Below are positions 1 through 4,472 of a stretch of DNA of 4,472 nt, piece by piece. The position numbers were made by a program, and so were the translations under genes. The first letter of the stretch is position 1, and the number at the start of each line of letters is the position of its first letter. This DNA is from a virus (taxonomy: Duplodnaviria > Heunggongvirae > Uroviricota > Caudoviricetes): IMG/VR virus record IMGVR_UViG_2734482536_000008; one strand, given 5' to 3'. Under the pieces are notes generated by a model, which had not been told where the DNA came from, did not search any database, and saw only the letters and a list, made by a program, of their open reading frames with translations.

Positions 1-25
1 GGGAAAAATATCATCAGATGGCTGC

Positions 26-378
26 TTAAAAAAAGAACAAATGGTAGTGTCCGCTATTGCCAGTACACCTCAATTGCTCTGCGGCTTCGCTCAGAGCTGG
101 CGTATGTTCCCGGCCTACTGATTCACACAGGTAATCAACGAAACCGGACACCAGTTTTCGTTCGCGAGGCGTGATCGCCCCACCGACCGGAGTCCAGTAA
201 TCGAAACCCAGTTGCAGGAGTTTGAAAAAACGCTTGTGGAATGCGTAGTTACACACACGCTTAAAGTCTGCGTGTATCCACTCACCTATTTTGATTTGAT
301 GCAGAAAATCGCAACTCTCCGGCGTCGCCGGGAGAAGTAATCCGGAAGAGGTTTGTTTGACCAGTTGTATATGTGCCA
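26..378 (-). CDS. Hypothetical prophage protein, 117 aa from the ATG at 376-378 (ORF track extends it to a TTG at 419-421)
   Basis: Open frame with no stops. The ATG at 376-378 is preceded by GGAGAAAG about 7 nt upstream on the minus strand. Reads protein-like (MAHIQLVKQTSSG...), but I recognise no family with confidence. The stop lies 25 nt from the window edge. Confidence 0.45.
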
Positions 379-417
379 TCGGCTTTCTCCGGTGGCACGG
401 TGTTACACAGCAGGAGT

Positions 418-705
418 TCAATCCTGCTCAAGATTGTAGATGAGTTTATTCTTCAGCAAAAGCAGAAAACCAGCCTTAAAACCAATCTCTTTCAAAACCC
501 GTAATGATGTGACAAATTCGTCCTCACGCAAAATAAAACCGTCCGTCAGAAGTCCATTACAAAAATAAAATAACACAGCACCGCTCTTCCTTTGTTGAGA
601 TTGCAAACATCTAATGCGGCAATGGCTGACAATCGCTCCATTCTCAACGCGCACAGCATAGAGGCCATTTTCACTAAAAATTTCACGCAATTCTTCGATT
701 TTCAT
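418..705 (-). CDS. Hypothetical small protein, 95 aa
   Basis: ATG at 703-705 preceded by GGAAGGA (SD-like) on the minus strand; stop at 418-420. No recognisable motif. Confidence 0.45.
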   Translation of the reverse strand: MKIEELREIFSENGLYAVRVENGAIVSHCRIRCLQSQQRKSGAVLFYFCNGLLTDGFILREDEFVTSLRVLKEIGFKAGFLLLLKNKLIYNLEQD

Positions 706-786
706 CTTCAGAATCCTTCCAGATAAATAGCTCTCCCCTGTTCGGGGTCCATCCCTCTTCTCCCTGCGCGCTACTTAAGTGAGTCG

Positions 787-814
787 ATTCTATCTGCGAA
801 GGTGCGCGAATCAA
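787..814 (-). promoter_or_regulatory. Candidate sigma70 promoter for the 95-aa gene (TTGATT, 16-nt spacer, TAGAAT on the minus strand)
   Basis: Minus-strand -35 TTGATT (plus 809-814 aatcaa) and -10 TAGAAT (plus 787-792 attcta); predicted start near 780, giving a roughly 75-nt leader. Sequence match only. Confidence 0.3.
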
Positions 815-830
815 ATTCACCGGAAATAAA

Positions 831-877
831 CAACAAAAAACCCGCCGAAACGCTGAGAGATCACAGCGATGGGCGGG
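831..877 (-). terminator. Rho-independent terminator at the end of the hok transcript
   Basis: Minus-strand RNA CCCGCC-CAU-CGCUG-UGAUCUCU-CAGCG-UUU-CGGCGGG (two-tier GC-rich hairpin, plus 841-877) followed directly by UUUUUUGUUGUUUAUUU (plus 831-840 A-run). Confidence 0.6.
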
Positions 878-883
878 TTAAGT

Positions 884-896
884 GCGGGTGCGTTGA
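884..896 (-). promoter_or_regulatory. 3' fold-back (fbi-like) element of hok mRNA, complementary to the predicted mRNA 5' end
   Basis: Plus 884-896 gggtgcgttgagg is the near-perfect reverse complement of plus 1269-1280 cctcaagcaccc (one extra base). In the minus-strand transcript the 5' end GGGUGCUUGAGG can pair with 3' CCUCAACGCACCC, as described for hok-family mRNAs. Confidence 0.45.
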
Positions 897-918
897 GGAT
901 GCCTGACACATCAGAGGT

Positions 919-946
919 GGGCGGGGATGGGATCAGCTCCCCGCCC
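919..946 (-). promoter_or_regulatory. Perfect 9-bp GC-rich stem-loop immediately 3' of the hok stop codon
   Basis: gggcgggga (919-927), 10-nt loop, tccccgccc (938-946). No U-tract follows on either strand, so it is not a terminator; likely a structural element of the hok 3' UTR. Confidence 0.4.
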
Positions 947-954
947 GGTCACTC

Positions 955-1110
955 TTACTTCCTGGATTCGTAGTCTACGAAGACAGCGACCTCCGTCTGG
1001 CCGGTTCGGATTCGTACCTCACAGAGGTCTTTCCTCGTTACCAGTGCCGTCACTATGACGGTTAAACAGATGACGATCAGGGCGATTAACATCGCCTTTT
1101 GCTGCTTCAT
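955..1110 (-). CDS. hok: Hok/Gef family type I toxin, 51 aa
   Basis: Translation MKQQKAMLIALIVICLTVIVTALVTRKDLCEVRIRTGQTEVAVFVDYESRK is near-identical over most of its length to HokD/RelF and Gef/HokC as I recall them (single transmembrane helix, conserved TRK-LCE-R-G-EVA core). ATG at 1108-1110 with AAGGAG 9 nt upstream. The specific paralog is not resolved. Confidence 0.85.
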   Translation of the reverse strand: MKQQKAMLIALIVICLTVIVTALVTRKDLCEVRIRTGQTEVAVFVDYESRK

Positions 1111-1167
1111 AGCCTGCTTCTCCTTGCCTTTCGGCATGTAAGAGGCTAACCTACATGTGCAAAGCAT
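955..1167 (-). CDS. mok: mok-like in-frame upstream reading frame, 70 codons, sharing the hok stop
   Basis: ATG at 1165-1167 opens a frame that runs into hok in the same frame, 19 codons longer. This matches the mok/hok arrangement in which mok is a 5'-extended frame ending at the hok stop, as I recall for mokC/hokC. Confidence 0.45.
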   Translation of the reverse strand: MLCTCRLASYMPKGKEKQAMKQQKAMLIALIVICLTVIVTALVTRKDLCEVRIRTGQTEVAVFVDYESRK

Positions 1168-1225
1168 GAAATTGGCCTCAGATTAATGTTAAGCGTCTTG
1201 CCGGACGCGTAATGTTAACTGGGGC
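1150..1225 (+). ncRNA. sok: Predicted Sok-like antisense RNA (position approximate)
   Basis: By analogy with hok/sok, the antisense RNA is transcribed opposite the hok leader across the mok initiation region. A weak plus-strand promoter candidate exists (TTGCCT 1124-1129, 17-nt spacer, TAACCT 1147-1152). Ends are not defined and no clean terminator was found. Confidence 0.25.
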
Positions 1226-1268
1226 TTTTCTCTATCTGCCTTTTGGTGTTCATGCCTGAAGCAGATAG

Positions 1269-1280
1269 CCTCAAGCACCC
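1269..1280 (-). promoter_or_regulatory. Predicted 5' end of hok mRNA (5' partner of the fbi pairing)
   Basis: Lies immediately downstream of the predicted -10 on the minus strand and is complementary to 884-896 (see that feature). Confidence 0.45.
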
Positions 1281-1286
1281 GCAGTC

Positions 1287-1316
1287 ATTCTACTTACCTC
1301 GCCAATATGAAATCAA
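1287..1316 (-). promoter_or_regulatory. Candidate sigma70 promoter of hok/mok mRNA (TTGATT, 18-nt spacer, TAGAAT)
   Basis: Minus-strand -35 TTGATT (plus 1311-1316) and -10 TAGAAT (plus 1287-1292); predicted start near 1280. This gives a leader of about 113 nt to mok and 170 nt to hok, consistent with hok-family mRNA architecture. Confidence 0.5.
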
Positions 1317-1337
1317 TCAGAAAGGTGCCCCATAAAA

Positions 1338-2024
1338 TCACTCCTTCTCTTCTTTACCGTAGTGGAGTTGACCAATTTTGATAAGAGGGCGTCCCTGAGA
1401 TTTGCGGTGTAGATTGGTATCGCGCAGAGAATACACACAGCCACAATATTCCTGCTGATAGAATTTTTCGCGCTTGCTGATTTCAATCATACGGGACGAG
1501 CCGCCCTGCTTGCGCCAGTTATAATCCCAGTACACCATGCCCGGATAATGCGCGACGGCTCGCCGCCCACAGTCGTTAACCTGCTGCATATTTTTCCAGC
1601 GTGAAATGCCCAGTGAACTGCTGATCACACTGAAACCATTTTCAGCGGCGTACAGCGCTGTCCGCTCAAAACGCATGTCAAAACACATGGTGCAACGGAT
1701 CCCTCGTTCGGGCTCCCATTCCATTCCTTTGGCTCGTTCAAACCAGTTGTCTGTGTCGTAATCAGCATCAATAAACGGCACGCCGTGTTGTTCAGCAAAG
1801 CGAATATTCTCATCCTTACGAATTAAATACTCTTTCTGAGGATGAATGTTCGGGTTGTAGAAAAAGATGGTGTAGTCGATTCCCGAGGCCTGAAGCGCCT
1901 CCATCACCTCACCGGAACATGGAGCACAGCAAGAGTGCAGTAGTAGTTTGTTTGCCCCGTTTGGGAGCTCCAATTTGGGCCGTTTGAAATCAGCAACTGT
2001 CATAAATATGTTTATTGGGGTCAT
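1338..2024 (-). CDS. queH: QueH-like (DUF208) putative epoxyqueuosine reductase, Fe-S enzyme, 228 aa
   Basis: Contains [11 protein letters not shown] near the N-terminus plus downstream CTMCF and [11 protein letters not shown] cysteine motifs, which I recognise as the DUF208/QueH signature. No obvious Shine-Dalgarno before the ATG at 2022-2024 or the in-frame ATG at 2001-2003, so the start is uncertain. Family assignment is from memory of motifs. Confidence 0.7.
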
Positions 2025-2171
2025 AAAAATATCAAAGAGTGTAGCATTAGAACGGGGCTATCGGAAACAGATGTGTGACTGCTCCCCGCCCTTTCGGGTG
2101 GTCTCCTGATGATTTGAGGGTGCAGAAATCCCTCCGGTTAAGGATTAAATTTTTAACAGTGCTAAATTTAA

Positions 2172-2528
2172 TTATTCAGTTCTGGATTTTGTCGCCCTGC
2201 GTATCCGCGCTTTCGCGTTACGCTCAATCTGTATCAGCTTTTCTATATTTCTCCGCCTTTCCTGTTCCTCCTGGCGCAATAGCCTTACATCATCTGCCAG
2301 TCTGGTTTCTCTTTTTGCCACAGAGAGCATCCAGTCAAACGGCTCCACAACCGCACCGCAGATTTTACAGCGGACCTGACGCTCTTTTTCGTCAACCCGT
2401 ACAGAGGCGTGATGGCAATATGGTCTTTCCGATGGCTCATAAAGAAAATTAACCTGATTACGAGGGTCATCCTCTTTTACCGGAAATAAAACGATATTGC
2501 TTAACTCATCTTCTGGTTTTATTTCCAT
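2172..2528 (-). CDS. Uncharacterised protein, 119 aa: putative zinc-ribbon (C-H-H ... CxxC) followed by a charged, probably coiled-coil, C-terminal half
   Basis: ATG at 2526-2528 preceded by a strong SD AAGGAGAGGAG; the ORF track's longer version starts at 2585 and abuts the upstream stop. Motif YCHHASVRVDEKERQVRCKICG, then RETRLADDVRLLRQEEQERRRNIEKLIQIERNAKARIRR. No family recognised. Confidence 0.6.
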   Translation of the reverse strand: MEIKPEDELSNIVLFPVKEDDPRNQVNFLYEPSERPYCHHASVRVDEKERQVRCKICGAVVEPFDWMLSVAKRETRLADDVRLLRQEEQERRRNIEKLIQIERNAKARIRRATKSRTE

Positions 2529-2585
2529 GCTCCTCTCCTTTGATGCGAATGCCAGCGGTAATTGAAGCCTGATAGCTAATTTCAT

Positions 2586-3008
2586 TCACAGTATCGCCTC
2601 CTGAAAATTACCCTGATAGAAAGCCAGTACACGCTGCATAGCTTCGCTCTTCCGGCACTCGCGACAGATTATATTCAGGCGCCTGTCGTAGCGGCGTATT
2701 TCTCCGTCAGGTAATGACCAGATAAGGTCCGGATCAACAACAACCGGTTTCCTCACCTTTACTCTCGAGAGTTTTTTGCGGGCGCTTTGCCAGTCCTTGC
2801 GAGCCTGTTCAGACGGGAATAAGCCGTAGCCAGAATTATATACATCACCACTTGCGACCAGTTCTATGCATAAGCGACCGACAGACGCACGACTGATACC
2901 TGTTTCATCTGACAACTGCCGAATCGTGACCCGACCGTCCTGATGCACGAGTTCCACAATTCGCGTCTTCAGTTCTTCCCGCTGTTCGGGAGTAAAAGGT
3001 TTCGCCAT
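2586..3008 (-). CDS. ren: Ren-like protein with N-terminal helix-turn-helix, 140 aa
   Basis: ATG at 3006-3008 with AGGAGG 5 nt upstream, 14 nt after the DnaC-like stop. C-terminal ICRECRKSEAMQRVLAFYQG resembles the phage lambda Ren C-terminus (FKECRQSAAMKRVLAVYG, as I recall it). N-terminal TIRQLSDETGISRASVGRL is HTH-like. The position right after the P-like gene matches lambda O-P-ren order. Confidence 0.55.
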   Translation of the reverse strand: MAKPFTPEQREELKTRIVELVHQDGRVTIRQLSDETGISRASVGRLCIELVASGDVYNSGYGLFPSEQARKDWQSARKKLSRVKVRKPVVVDPDLIWSLPDGEIRRYDRRLNIICRECRKSEAMQRVLAFYQGNFQEAIL

Positions 3009-3022
3009 AAATCCTCCTGAAA

Positions 3023-3684
3023 CTACTTAACAACCCTCGAATGGCTAACATTCGGACGCCAGCTCTCCCAGTTAAAATTCACCCAGCGCCCGNNNNNNNN
3101 NNNNNNNNNNNNNNNNNNNNNNNNNNNNNNNNNNNNNNNNNNNNNNNNNNNNNNNNNNNNNNNNNNNNNNNNNNNNNNNNNNNNNNNNNNNNNNNNNNNN
3201 NNNNNNNNNNNNNNNNNNNNNNNNNNNNNNNNNNNNNNNNNNNNNNNNNNNNNNNNNNNNNNNNNNNNNNNNNNNNNNNNNNNNNNNNNNNNNNNNNNNN
3301 NNNNNNNNNNNNNNNNNNNNNGATAGCTGCCGCTAAGTGATTCTTCCCGGTACCAGGTTTTCCGCTGAACGCAAAATTTGTACACCCGGTCATCAGTTCA
3401 TCGGCGATGGATTTCGCCTGGCTTAACGCGTATCGCTGGCCGTCGTTCTGCACCTGGTAATTCGCAAACGAGCATTTACGGTGCAACGGCTGGATGCCTG
3501 AGCGATTCAGAATTTTTTCCACCCGCAACTGGCGATTCAGGCGGTTGATCTCCTCGCTACGTTTCTGGCCTTCAGCAAGTTGCCACTCGCGCCACTCCGC
3601 TACCGTTCTGAATGGGGCGGTTACATGTGGCGGGGTCAGTCGGCGGATGCGTTCCAGAACGCCGCCTGTCGCAATATTTTTCAT
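3023..3684 (-). CDS. dnaC: DnaC-like replicative helicase loader (phage P-function analogue, AAA+ ATPase), interrupted by the N run
   Basis: N-terminal 120 aa align closely to E. coli DnaC, including NRSGIQPLH, CSF-NYQV and the Walker A motif FSGKPGTGKNHLAAAI. The C-terminal tail after the gap (GRWVNFNWESWRPNVSHSRVVK) matches the DnaC C-terminus (LWVIFNWDSYRSRVTGKEY). ATG at 3682-3684, stop TAG at 3023-3025. The two halves are in different frames across a 229-nt N run, so the true length is unknown. Confidence 0.85.
3093..3321. other. Run of 229 N (assembly gap or masked sequence) inside the DnaC-like gene
   Basis: Directly visible. Its length is not a multiple of 3, which explains the frame change between the two gene halves. 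Confidence 0.95.
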
Positions 3685-3690
3685 GGTCCG

Positions 3691-4367
3691 TTACCCCCTG
3701 AAGCCTGGCGGGATCGCACTGTCCGGCAACGAGACGGTGTTAACCTGTCGGAGCAACGTCTCAGGCCGAACACCTTTCGGCGCGAACAGGCCCTGGTATT
3801 CATTGGCGATGCTGTGTCGAATCACCTGCTCAGGTGTAAAACCCTGCTGACGGAATTTTTCCAGTTCCCGTATCGCCCCGTTAGCGCCCTGCTCCGTTCG
3901 AATCGGTTTTCGCAATGCCTGTCTGAACCGGACCCACTCATGCCAGAGTGTTTCCGGCAACCAATCGGGCAGCTCAATAGCCTCCGGCTCGAATTTTTTA
4001 GACGCTCGTTTTTGGCGAGGGGGAGATCAGTATTTAGATCTTCCTCTTCCTCTTCCTCTGGTAACGCTTTTTGATCCGTTTGTGTAACGCTGGCAGCGTT
4101 ACCTTTTCGTTTCAGTTCGCGTATTTTTGTTACTCGCTCGTTTGTAACCGCCCGTTTTTTTTAGAGCTTTTTCCGTTATGACGTTCAAAGTTAGGTAGAG
4201 AAAGCCCTCCGTCATTTTCGACCAGCCATCCAACCTGAATTAACGCATCAGCAAAACCAGACATAAAAGTGATGCGATCTATTGCACTTTTTGTAACGCC
4301 GCGAGCGTTACAATCTGCATTACCGTCTATCATTTGTTGATCCGCCCATGCCCAGAAGCGAATAACC
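3691..4367 (-). pseudogene. Phage replication-initiator/primosomal gene with DnaT-like C-terminal domain, split across three frames
   Basis: The C-terminal segment (3691..about 4026) ends NTVSLPDSAIPPGFRG and contains KFEPEAIELPDWLPE, matching the E. coli DnaT C-terminal domain (NTVSEPDSQIPPGFRG; PDWQPD). Its stop is 6 nt before the DnaC-like start, like chromosomal dnaT-dnaC. Upstream, coding continues without stops in a second frame (about 4160..3996, KKRAVTNERVTKIRELKRKGNAASVTQTDQKALPEEEEEEDLNTDLPLAKNERLK) and a third (4367..4130, ending HNGKSSKKNGRLQTSE stop). The frames change at an A8 tract (plus T8, 4155-4162) and near an A6 tract (plus 3994-3999). The 5' end is either the ATG at 4331-4333 or lies beyond the IS at 4368. 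Confidence 0.55.
4039..4059. repeat. Hexanucleotide tandem repeat (TCTTCC/GAGGAA, about 3.5 units) encoding a Glu6 linker on the minus strand
   Basis: Plus tcttcctcttcctcttcctct; on the minus strand GAG GAA GAG GAA GAG GAA in the middle frame of the replication gene. Confidence 0.5.
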
Positions 4368-4472
4368 TGAGGTAGCCTGAGTTTAACGGACACTCCTTCC
4401 TGAAATAGAATGGCATCAGAAGGAGCTAATAATGAGCAGAAAAACCCAACGTTACTCTAAAGAGTTCAAAGC
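4368..4472 (+). mobile_element. IS3-family insertion sequence, left end (IS600-like), continuing past the window edge
   Basis: A terminal TGAGGTAGCC... at 4368 with GGACAC at IR positions 21-26, the same position as in the IS3 left inverted repeat as I recall it. The orfA ATG follows 64 bp after the IR start with AGGAG 8 nt upstream, a typical IS3-family layout. Only one end is in the window, so the boundary is inferred. Confidence 0.7.
4432..4472 (+). CDS. IS3-family transposase OrfA, N-terminal 13 codons (partial, runs off the window)
   Basis: ATGAGCAGAAAAACCCAACGTTACTCTAAAGAGTTCAAAGC translates MSRKTQRYSKEFK, which I recognise as the start of IS600/IS3-family OrfA (HTH protein). Confidence 0.75.
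   Translation, partial: MSRKTQRYSKEFK

What the first reader, a model, noticed from the sequence alone, without database searches (positions are those of the whole stretch)
831..1316. Complete hok/mok type I toxin locus with promoter, fbi long-range pairing and terminator
Beyond the Hok ORF, the flanking RNA elements expected for a functional hok-family mRNA are all present. There is a TTGATT-18-TAGAAT promoter with a start near 1280, a 5' end (GGGUGCUUGAGG) complementary to a 3' element about 385 nt downstream (CCUCAACGCACCC, plus 884-896), an in-frame 70-codon mok-like frame, a perfect 9-bp GC hairpin just after the stop, and a strong intrinsic terminator. This suggests an active post-segregational-killing or abortive-infection module, not a decayed remnant. 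The Hok C-terminus (VFVDYESRK) differs from the HokD and Gef tails I recall, so it may be a distinct paralog.
Basis: partly seen in the sequence, partly recalled or inferred. Interest (0 to 1): 0.45.

Follow-up and report, generated by a model that had tools for sequence, protein, structure and literature searches.

The report
Complete hokW/hokD-type hok-sok toxin locus
This is an ordinary but structurally complete copy of the well-known hok/mok/sok "host-killing" toxin-antitoxin module, nearly identical to the tested hokW-sokW of Shiga-toxin phages, lying in a decayed E. coli/Shigella prophage fragment flanked by two IS600 elements.

Summary
On the minus strand, 1316-834 holds a full hok-family type I toxin-antitoxin unit. 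It has a TTGATT-18-TAGAAT promoter with a start at G1280, and a 70-codon mok frame (1167-955) that contains the 51-codon hok (1110-955; Pfam HOK_GEF, 4e-23). A 9-bp GC hairpin lies at 946-919, and a hairpin plus U6 terminator at 879-834. Rfam RF01794 matches 1280-1105 at 117 bits against a cut-off of 59. Also present are the 5' metastable hairpin, the ucb/mok-SD lock, the SD/dcb stem, and a Sok gene on the plus strand (about 1159-1229). The Sok -10 (TAACCT) is the element mutated experimentally in sokW. The tac/fbi pairing shows compensatory changes at six positions across 12 hok loci from five genera. The "distinct paralog" idea fails. The toxin is 50/51 identical to HokW of phages 933W/Sp5, and identical DNA in RefSeq carries a hokD annotation. 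The allele-specific features are three indels that leave the elements in place (promoter spacer, hairpin loop, terminator loop). Activity was not testable. This is an already known kind of locus and of low interest.

The parts
1287..1316 (-). hok/mok promoter: -35 TTGATT (1316-1311), 18-nt spacer, -10 TAGAAT (1292-1287); start at G1280
   Evidence: Promoter scan. TAGAAT is kept in 6 of the 10 aligned homologues, with a -10-like hexamer in the same place in the others. This allele has a 10-nt spacer deletion relative to strain C7, which moves the -35 from TTGGCG to TTGATT.
834..1280 (-). Full-length hok mRNA, about 446 nt
   Evidence: MFE -189.6 kcal/mol, z-score -8.4. The 5' end coincides with Rfam model position 1. 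The 3' end is inferred from the hairpin plus U6.
1269..1280 (-). tac (translational activator) element, GGGUGCUUGAGG
   Evidence: It pairs with fbi in the full-length fold, with ucb in the 62-nt and 160-nt folds, and with the segment immediately downstream in the nascent 30-nt metastable hairpin (1278-1252, -16.9 kcal/mol).
1219..1225 (-). ucb / anti-SD, GCCCCAG
   Evidence: It pairs with the mok SD region CUGAGGC (1181-1175) in the full-length fold. It pairs with tac in the open fold, which matches the Rfam consensus.
1105..1280 (-). hok mRNA leader matching Rfam RF01794
   Evidence: 117 bits against a gathering score of 59, E = 3.9e-27, full model 1-157. The model is in hok-sense orientation. 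In K-12 it hits the hokB strand, opposite the annotated sokB.
955..1167 (-). mok reading frame, 70 codons; SD GAGG at 1179-1176; dcb GCCUC at 1146-1142
   Evidence: ORF list. Same frame and stop as hok, as in the annotated mokW of phage 933W. The SD/dcb stem forms in the 160-nt fold.
955..1110 (-). hok toxin gene, 51 aa; SD AAGGAG at 1125-1120
   Evidence: Pfam HOK_GEF 4.3e-23. PHROG 251 'MokW-like host killing' 1.3e-32. 50/51 identical to HokW.
1124..1152 (+). Sok promoter: -35 TTGCCT (1124-1129), 17-nt spacer, -10 TAACCT (1147-1152)
   Evidence: Read directly from the sequence. Both hexamers are identical to those of 933W/Sp5 sokW. That -10 was mutated to abolish antitoxin activity: primer YO-421 and the Figure 1E legend in PMC8621323. 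It falls below the threshold of the consensus scan.
1159..1229 (+). Sok antisense RNA, about 71 nt: 15-nt single-stranded 5' tail, long hairpin, U-rich 3' end
   Evidence: Coordinates transferred from the annotated sokW of 933W through alignment A1. Fold -28.6 kcal/mol. It is complementary to ucb, the Sok-target hairpin, the mok SD and the mok AUG.
919..946 (-). GC-rich 3' stem-loop, 9 bp with a 10-nt loop; the predicted protective 3' end of the processed (truncated) hok mRNA
   Evidence: Folds (-20.9 kcal/mol). Homologues keep a stem at the same place with different sequences. The role is inferred from R1, where mutations in the last stem-loop of the truncated hok mRNA abolish function (PMC9841398).
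886..898 (-). fbi (fold-back inhibitory) element, CCUCAACGCACCC
   Evidence: It pairs with tac in the MFE. Compensatory changes appear at tac positions 4, 7, 8, 9, 10 and 12 across 12 distinct loci.
834..879 (-). Intrinsic terminator: 8-bp stem (879-872/847-840), 24-nt loop containing a 5-bp inner stem, then U6 (839-834)
   Evidence: Fold -22.4 kcal/mol. There is a 23-nt insertion in the tetraloop of the terminator seen in C7, W, PCN033 and J31. The pattern scan did not detect it.
967..973 (-). CUACGAA heptamer around the Tyr47 codon (UAC at 972-970, G at 969): TadA A-to-I editing motif
   Evidence: Identical to the anticodon loop of E. coli tRNA-Arg(ACG). It lies in a predicted 7-nt loop. Editing of the equivalent Tyr in hokC/D/E is reported in PMC5630033. 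It was not tested here.

Best explanation
Window 1316-834 (minus strand), together with the antisense gene at about 1124-1229 (plus strand), is a complete hok/mok/sok type I toxin-antitoxin module of the prophage hokW/hokD lineage.

Inferred mechanism, by homology with plasmid R1 hok/sok and Sp5 hokW-sokW:
1. A weak constitutive promoter makes a hok mRNA of about 446 nt.
2. While the RNA is being made, its 5' end is held in a metastable hairpin.
3. In the finished RNA the 5' tac element pairs with fbi about 385 nt downstream, and ucb covers the mok Shine-Dalgarno. Neither ribosomes nor Sok can bind.
4. Slow 3' exonucleolytic trimming removes the terminator and fbi and stops at the 9-bp GC hairpin.
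5. tac can then pair with ucb. This frees the mok SD and exposes the Sok target.
6. While the unstable Sok RNA of about 71 nt is being made, it pairs across the mok start and the duplex is destroyed by RNase III.
7. If Sok synthesis stops, mok is translated, hok is translated by coupling, and the 51-aa Hok peptide inserts in the inner membrane and kills the cell.

In intact lambdoid prophages the likely trigger is prophage induction. In this IS600-bracketed remnant the only plausible trigger is loss of the DNA segment, which would be addiction. Steps shown here: presence, register, predicted folding and covariation of the elements. Steps inferred: transcription, processing, Sok instability, toxicity and biological role.
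For: - Toxin: Pfam HOK_GEF 4e-23 for Hok and 1e-22 for Mok. PHROG 'MokW-like host killing' 1e-32.
- Leader: Rfam RF01794, full-length hit at 117 bits against a cut-off of 59, starting at G1280.
- Full-length fold: it pairs tac with fbi and ucb with the mok SD, z-score -8.4.
- Other conformations: the nascent 30-mer forms the metastable hairpin. The 160-nt MFE is the open tac/ucb plus SD/dcb conformation of the Rfam consensus.
- Effect of the 3' end: forcing the open form costs 19.7 kcal/mol in the full-length RNA but only 5.6 kcal/mol once the 3' end is removed.
- Covariation: the first six tac/fbi pairs are 100% paired across 12 distinct loci from Escherichia, Kluyvera, Pantoea, Photorhabdus and Ewingella plus K-12 hokB, and the whole helix shows double compensatory changes at six positions.
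- Closest relative: Hok is 50/51 identical to HokW and the DNA is about 92% identical to the 933W/Sp5 hokW-mokW-sokW locus.
- Sok: the -35 and -10 hexamers are identical to those of sokW. Mutating that promoter unmasks HokW toxicity (PMC8621323).
- Integrity: the mok and hok ORFs are intact. The three allele-specific indels (promoter spacer, 3' hairpin loop, terminator loop) leave every element usable, and two other genomes share them.
Against: - No expression or toxicity data exist for this allele.
- The consensus scan did not detect the Sok promoter. It matches TTGACA/TATAAT at 4/6 and 3/6, read directly from the sequence.
- The terminator loop is 24 nt, so termination efficiency is unknown (one search found no terminator).
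- The thermodynamic model still prefers the closed form of the truncated RNA by 5.6 kcal/mol. The switch itself is therefore taken from R1 experiments, not reproduced here.
- Chromosomal hokA/B/C loci were reported unable to mediate post-segregational killing (cited in bioRxiv 10.1101/2025.08.07.668861).
- NCBIfam Hok-family models score below their cut-offs: 55 against 73 bits.
Confidence: 0.85

Rival explanations
1. The locus is structurally intact but physiologically silent. Like several chromosomal hok loci, it is transcribed and fully repressed, is never activated in practice, and persists only because it was acquired recently with the prophage.
For: [quoted passage not shown] The surrounding prophage is defective: the replication initiator gene is frameshifted and both ends are cut by IS600. 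Prophage induction, the known trigger for hokW, is therefore unlikely here.
Against: Every regulatory element is intact, although the neighbouring genes show a frameshift and IS damage. The two substitutions that separate this copy from L016/L017 both fall in stems. In the window both stems are fully Watson-Crick paired. In L016/L017 one pair becomes a G-U wobble and the other a C-A mismatch.
Confidence: 0.3
2. The locus is a phage lysis helper. As for hokW-sokW in Sp5, its function is to produce Hok after prophage induction and so advance lysis and raise phage release. This copy would be a leftover of that function.
For: This is the only experimentally shown role of the 98%-identical HokW: sokW RNA disappears after mitomycin C, HokW appears in a RecA-dependent way, and phage yield halves in the deletion mutant (PMC8621323). 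The QueH-hok arrangement in the prophage early/nin region recurs in more than 2000 E. coli records. hok is sense to early rightward transcription coming through QueH, with no terminator between the QueH stop (1338) and the hok -35 (1316). Convergent read-through could therefore silence the Sok promoter on induction (inference).
Against: In the source genome the prophage is reduced to a 4.3-kb fragment between two IS600 copies with a broken replication gene, so no induction or progeny is expected. In Sp5/933W hokW sits at a different place, near the right end of the prophage.
Confidence: 0.2
3. The locus is an abortive-infection or phage-exclusion module. Infection by a lytic phage shuts off host transcription, Sok decays, and Hok kills the cell before the phage matures.
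For: R1 hok/sok on a high-copy plasmid reduced T4 plating efficiency and plaque size (cited in PMC8621323). The neighbouring DUF977 protein falls in a PHROG annotated 'Ren-like exclusion protein'.
Against: hok genes are not enriched near defence systems (bioRxiv 10.1101/2025.08.07.668861, section listed). The R1 effect was modest and seen at high copy number. No test exists for hokW/hokD-type loci.
Confidence: 0.12
4. The copy has started to decay. The 10-nt promoter deletion and the 23-nt terminator-loop insertion have crippled hok transcription or 3'-end formation, so it is on its way to becoming a remnant like K-12 hokD.
For: Both indels are specific to this small lineage: 2 of 5426 complete E. 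coli genomes carry identical DNA, and L016/L017 are near-identical. K-12-type hokD copies match only from window 1124 downward, so they have lost the promoter, tac, ucb, the mok start and the Sok transcribed region (H131-H137).
Against: The deletion puts a better -35 (TTGATT, 4/6) at an 18-nt spacing, where relatives have TTGGCG (3/6) at 17 nt. The insertion forms its own inner stem and the terminator hairpin is predicted to be more stable: -22.4 against -11.4 kcal/mol. The ORFs, tac, fbi, ucb, dcb and Sok are all unchanged.
Confidence: 0.08

Closest known systems
hokW-mokW-sokW of Stx2 phages 933W / Sp5 (VT2-Sakai) (Takada et al. 2021, PMC8621323; GenBank AF125520 annotation)
   Same: The toxin is 50/51 identical, including the VFVDYES tail. 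DNA identity is about 92% over roughly 420 nt. mok has the same frame and stop. The tac and fbi sequences are identical, and so are the Sok -35 and -10 hexamers. The Sok length and position are the same.
   Different: - One residue differs (E50R).
- The Sok 5' tail and mok-start segment (about 1180-1155) differs at about 7 positions.
- The hok -35 region is unrelated upstream of the -10.
- The sequence downstream of fbi is unrelated: 933W lacks the CCCGCC...GGCGGG-U6 terminator seen here.
- The genomic position differs: here in the early/nin region directly after QueH, in 933W near the right prophage end.
hokD (relF) of the cryptic prophage Qin, E. coli K-12
   Same: Same gene lineage, with 90% protein identity. 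Both lie in the early region of a lambdoid prophage. RefSeq names the window's protein HokD. The TACG editing motif at Tyr47 is kept in both.
   Different: K-12-type copies align only with window 1124-873 (H131-H137). They lack the promoter, tac, ucb, the Sok target, the mok start and the Sok transcribed region, and relBE lies upstream instead. The window copy is the complete form. The tail is TAYEPEE in K-12 and VDYESRK here.
hok/mok/sok of plasmid R1 (archetype; Gerdes laboratory; Le Rhun et al. 2022, PMC9841398)
   Same: The architecture and the element set named in PMC9841398 are all present: tac/fbi closure, ucb sequestration of the mok SD, the SD/dcb stem, the 5' metastable hairpin, a protective 3' stem-loop, and an antisense Sok over the mok start. 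All were found here by folding.
   Different: HokW-type toxins are only about 44% identical to R1 Hok (PMC8621323). The replicon is a prophage remnant, not a plasmid. The 3' tail that would have to be removed is longer here, about 65-85 nt from the GC hairpin to the end of the transcript. The switch has not been tested experimentally for this lineage.
hokB-sokB of E. coli K-12
   Same: Rfam RF01794 hit of similar strength, 109.7 bits. The tac/fbi helix is kept through compensatory changes: GGGUGCCUGAGA with UCUCAUGGCACCC.
   Different: Only 37% protein identity. The mok frame has a different stop. It is a chromosomal, non-prophage locus. The TadA-editable Tyr is at position 29, not 46/47 (PMC5630033).

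Membership tests
[quoted passage not shown] | Small (about 50 aa) Hok/Gef-family membrane toxin ORF | tested here: met
   Pfam PF01848, 81 bits against a cut-off of 22. PHROG 251 at 1.3e-32. The conserved Cys15, Cys30, Leu29, Glu31 and Glu40 align with HokA-E. NCBIfam Hok models score below their curated cut-offs.
[quoted passage not shown] | Overlapping upstream mok reading frame with its own SD, through which hok is translated | tested here: met
   A 70-codon frame at 1167-955 with GAGG 8 nt upstream of the AUG. Same layout as the annotated mokW and mokC. Translational coupling itself was not testable.
[quoted passage not shown] | hok mRNA leader structure (tac stem, Sok-target hairpin, SD-mok/dcb stem, hok SD hairpin) | tested here: met
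   Rfam RF01794 covariance model, full-length match at 117 bits against a gathering score of 59. The MFE of the first 160 nt reproduces the consensus.
[quoted passage not shown] | Long-range 5'-3' tac/fbi pairing that closes the full-length mRNA | tested here: met
   12 bp with one bulge in the MFE. Across 12 distinct loci the first six pairs are 100% paired, and the helix shows double compensatory changes at positions 4, 7, 8, 9, 10 and 12.
[quoted passage not shown] | ucb (anti-SD) sequestration of the mok SD in the closed form, and a 5' metastable hairpin in the nascent RNA | tested here: met
   GCCCCAG pairs with CUGAGGC in the full-length MFE. A 5' hairpin of -16.9 kcal/mol forms in the 30-115-nt folds. 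These are predictions only.
[quoted passage not shown] | Refolding to the open, translatable form after 3' processing | tested here: inconclusive
   Removing the 3' end lowers the cost of the open form from 19.7 to 5.6 kcal/mol, but the closed form remains the MFE of the 366-nt RNA. Processing itself cannot be tested with these tools.
[quoted passage not shown] | Cis-encoded antisense Sok RNA with its own promoter, overlapping the mok translation start | tested here: met
   TTGCCT-17-TAACCT at 1124-1152 (+) has the same hexamers as the experimentally mutated sokW promoter. The 71-nt RNA has a 5' single-stranded tail, a hairpin and a U-rich end. Its position transfers from the annotated sokW. 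Expression was not testable.
[quoted passage not shown] | Hok is toxic and Sok neutralises it | not testable with these tools
   Shown for the 98%-identical HokW/sokW (PMC8621323). Inferred here.
HokW/HokD prophage sub-lineage | High identity to HokW/HokD and location in a lambdoid prophage | tested here: met
   98% identical to HokW and 90% to HokD. The neighbours are QueH, DUF977, ydaV, DUF1367 and YdaT/Cro/CI in the identical FDAARGOS_943 region.

The most novel reading that the evidence does not exclude
The module acts as an anti-deletion addiction device. The 4.3-kb prophage fragment (73-4368) lies between two IS600 copies that appear to be in direct orientation. Recombination between them would excise hok/sok on a non-replicating circle. 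Sok would then decay and the stable hok mRNA would kill the deletant. That would explain why this fragment, with an intact hok/sok but a frameshifted replication gene, survives in a heavily IS-eroded Shigella-like genome. A second layer may exist. Tyr47 sits in an exact copy of the tRNA-Arg(ACG) anticodon heptaloop (CUACGAA), so TadA editing to Cys could tune toxicity.
Probability: 0.2. Interest if true: 0.35.

Novelty: already known. Interest (0 to 1): 0.13.

Why it matters
There is little here for discovery. hok/sok is the textbook type I toxin-antitoxin system, and hok genes occur in about 80% of Enterobacteriaceae genomes and are enriched in prophages (bioRxiv 10.1101/2025.08.07.668861). 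This copy differs by one residue from the experimentally characterised HokW.

It has three practical uses:
- It is a clean example of the complete form of the hokD lineage, with every RNA element in place, and can be compared with the truncated K-12 hokD.
- Genome annotation gives only the hok CDS. mok, sok and the RNA elements are missing from the RefSeq record.
- The three structure-preserving indels and the variable Sok 5' tail could serve as natural variants for studying hok/Sok ratio and cross-talk.

Tried and rejected
- The pattern-based terminator scan found nothing in 700-1450. The cause is the 24-nt loop, which exceeds the tool's 3-8-nt limit. Folding shows the hairpin plus U6.
- The same scan did not report the Sok promoter because its hexamer matches are too weak. 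I accepted the promoter on homology to the mutated sokW promoter.
- The MFE of the 3'-truncated RNA (362-380 nt) did not switch to the open tac/ucb form. A constrained fold shows the open form is 5.6 kcal/mol less stable. I therefore do not claim the switch is reproduced in silico.
- The tac/fbi duplex energy in the single sequence is not decisive on its own, because shuffled tac reaches -23.1 against the observed -21.5 kcal/mol. I relied on covariation for this pairing.
- L033 (an hokC-type locus) and L056 showed no fbi partner and were left out of the covariation table. In L033 the best match lies in sequence that I read as the adjacent IS186/IS421 element.
- One ungapped alignment could not hold the second half of the tac/fbi helix, because the bulge position differs between lineages. 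Only helix positions 1-6 went through the count of structure pairs. Positions 7-12 were tabulated from RNAduplex output.
- NCBIfam gave only sub-threshold Hok hits.
- L016 and L017, which encode the identical protein, are not the window's source. They differ at 2 nt.
- 'Distinct paralog' was rejected.
- The idea that the CUACGAA heptamer is specific to HokW-type genes was rejected. 7 of 34 homologues have CUACGA and all 34 keep TACG.
- I did not use the large protein searches, structure prediction or the metagenome scan. They would not change the verdict.
Full report
**Observation**

- The ORF list gives a 70-codon frame (1167-955) that includes, in the same frame and with the same stop, the 51-codon frame MKQQKAMLIALIVICLTVIVTALVTRKDLCEVRIRTGQTEVAVFVDYESRK (1110-955). 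Both hit Pfam HOK_GEF, at 1e-22 and 4e-23.
- The promoter scan reports TTGATT-18-TAGAAT at 1316..1287 on the minus strand.
- Rfam RF01794 matches 1280..1105 on the minus strand over its full length, at 117 bits against a gathering score of 59 (E = 3.9e-27). The match starts exactly at GGGUGCUUGA.
- The Rfam family is called 'sok' but is modelled in the hok-sense direction. In K-12 it hits the hokB strand, opposite the annotated sokB.

**Structure of the full-length RNA**

Folding 1280..835 as RNA gives -189.6 kcal/mol, a z-score of -8.4, and 0 of 100 shuffles as stable. In that fold:

- Nt 1-12 (1280-1269, tac) pair with 898-886 (fbi), with one bulged C at 892.
- GCCCCAG (1225-1219, ucb) pairs with CUGAGGC (1181-1175), which contains the mok SD.
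- The 9-bp GC stem 946-938/927-919 lies 9 nt after the stop.
- An 8-bp stem (879-872/847-840) with an inner 5-bp stem precedes U6 at 839-834.

**Alternative conformations**

- The first 30 nt fold into a hairpin of -16.9 kcal/mol that sequesters tac. This corresponds to the metastable structure described for R1.
- The MFE of the first 160 nt is the open form, with tac/ucb, the Sok-target hairpin and the SD-mok/dcb stem. It equals the Rfam consensus.
- For the 3'-truncated RNA the model still prefers the closed form.
- The cost of forcing the open form falls from 19.7 kcal/mol in the full-length RNA to 5.6 kcal/mol in the truncated RNA. The direction fits the R1 model described in PMC9841398, but the switch itself is not reproduced in silico.

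**Is the tac/fbi pairing more than chance?**

In the single sequence the duplex energy is only moderately unusual: -21.5 against -15.5 +/- 2.2 kcal/mol for shuffled tac. I therefore collected hok loci from one genome per species and located their 5' ends with the Rfam model. I then searched 250-520 nt downstream of each 5' end for its partner.

Twelve distinct loci have a partner at 340-396 nt. They come from Escherichia, Kluyvera, Pantoea, Photorhabdus and Ewingella, plus K-12 hokB.

- Positions 1-6 are 100% paired, with U-A changing to C-G at position 4 in 5 of 12 loci.
- Positions 7, 8, 9, 10 and 12 also show changes on both sides.

This agrees with the family-wide model summarised in PMC9841398.

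**Sok**

Phage 933W annotates sokW on the opposite strand. Through alignment A1 that interval maps to window 1159-1229 (+).

- Upstream lies TTGCCT(1124-1129)-17-TAACCT(1147-1152). Both hexamers are identical to those of 933W.
- Takada et al. abolished antitoxin activity by mutating exactly this -10. Primer YO-421 changes CTAACCTA to CGAGCCGG. This unmasked HokW toxicity.
- The predicted Sok has a 15-nt single-stranded 5' tail, a long hairpin (-28.6 kcal/mol) and a U-rich 3' end.
- It is complementary to ucb, the target hairpin, the mok SD and the mok AUG.

**Identity**

- The Hok is 50/51 identical to HokW (E50R) and to the E. coli W copy. It is 90% identical to K-12 HokD, 78% to HokC and 36-37% to HokA/B/E. 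The VFVDYES tail is the HokW tail, not a new paralog.
- Identical DNA occurs in E. coli FDAARGOS_943 and 944, where the CDS is annotated hokD (WP_014532198.1) next to QueH, in a lambdoid prophage early region.
- 4713 of 5426 complete E. coli genomes have a related locus, with a median of 2 per genome. 79 phage records also carry one.
- K-12-type hokD aligns only from window 1124 downward. It lacks the promoter, tac, ucb, the mok start and the Sok transcribed region. The window copy is the complete form of that lineage.

**Features specific to this allele**

Compared with the closest complete relatives (C7, W, PCN033), this allele has three indels:

1. A 10-nt deletion in the promoter spacer. 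It replaces TTGGCG-17 with TTGATT-18 as the -35.
2. A 5-6-nt longer loop and a shifted perfect stem in the post-stop hairpin.
3. A 23-nt insertion in the TTCG tetraloop of the terminator. It forms its own 5-bp stem.

The same three indels occur in E. coli ECMA0423 and Shigella flexneri SFBU1023. Those two copies differ from the window at only two stem positions. None of the indels removes a functional element, but their effect on expression is unknown.

**Context**

- Window 1-~79 and ~4365-4472 are IS600 ends. Only 73-4368 matches the FDAARGOS prophage, at 99.4-99.8%.
- The replication-initiator-like gene is frameshifted (T8 against T6 at 4155-4162, plus a repeat indel near 4025-4045) and is cut by the right-hand IS600.
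- The locus therefore sits in a defective prophage fragment.
- This makes the demonstrated role of hokW, helping lysis and phage release after induction (PMC8621323), unlikely here.
- The remaining readings are addiction to the DNA segment, silence, or phage exclusion.

**Verdict**

The finding is correct and well described. It belongs to a thoroughly known family and differs by one residue from a characterised member. Novelty: already known. Interest: low.

Noticed in passing
window 1-79 and 4365-4472: Both ends of the window are IS600 (IS3 family) sequence. The left end is the 3' end of the element. The right end is the left terminus, with the orfA start at 4432 (MSRKTQRYSKEFK...). The 4.3-kb prophage fragment is therefore bracketed by two IS600 copies. 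They appear to be in the same orientation, but that was read from the sequence and not tested.
   Followed up: partly
window 3691-4393 (-): The replication-initiator-like gene (an intact 783-nt CDS in FDAARGOS_943, L001 8997-9779) is a pseudogene here. It has a +2 T in a T-run at 4155-4162 and a repeat-number indel near 4025-4045, and its 5' end is cut by IS600.
   Followed up: yes
window 3093-3321: A run of 229 N lies inside the ydaV/DnaC-like ATPase gene. The matching stretch in FDAARGOS_943 is 314 nt (L001 8314-8627). The masked run is therefore either shortened or hides a deletion.
   Followed up: partly
window 967-973 (-), edited A would be 971: The Tyr47 codon of hok is UAC followed by G. 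The heptamer CUACGAA is identical to the anticodon loop of E. coli tRNA-Arg(ACG) and lies in a predicted 7-nt loop. This is the TadA A-to-I editing motif reported to recode the equivalent Tyr to Cys in hokC/D/E (PMC5630033). All 34 Hok homologues checked keep an in-frame TACG, and 7 of 34 have CUACGA.
   Followed up: partly
window 1126-1185 (both strands): The Sok 5' tail, mok start and dcb segment is one of the most variable stretches of loci that are otherwise about 92% identical. The other variable stretches are the loop of the tac hairpin and the region from the hok 3' end through the post-stop hairpin. This may reflect pressure for Sok specificity in genomes that carry up to 9 hok loci. 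The count is rough, from 7 sequences, one of them IS-truncated.
   Followed up: partly
window 1338-2024 (-): A prophage-borne epoxyqueuosine reductase QueH (Pfam 1.9e-65) ends 21 nt upstream of the hok -35 on the same strand, with no terminator between them. The QueH-hokD adjacency recurs in more than 2000 E. coli records.
   Followed up: no
window 787-814 (-): A second promoter-like site with the same hexamers (TTGATT-16-TAGAAT) lies just downstream of the hok terminator and upstream of the 95-aa ORF 705-418 (phrog_340, unknown function). An ATAGAATC core also occurs in strain C7, displaced by 2 columns in the alignment.
   Followed up: no
window 2586-3008 (-): The DUF977 protein falls in PHROG 142, annotated 'Ren-like exclusion protein'. 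The neighbouring 137-aa ORF (2172-2585) has a weak zinc-ribbon hit.
   Followed up: no
Rfam RF01794, window 1105-1280 (-) and L013: The Rfam family named 'sok antitoxin' is modelled on the hok-sense strand (the leader of hok mRNA), not on the Sok RNA. In K-12 it hits the strand opposite the annotated sokB. Strand calls from this family can mislead annotation.
   Followed up: yes
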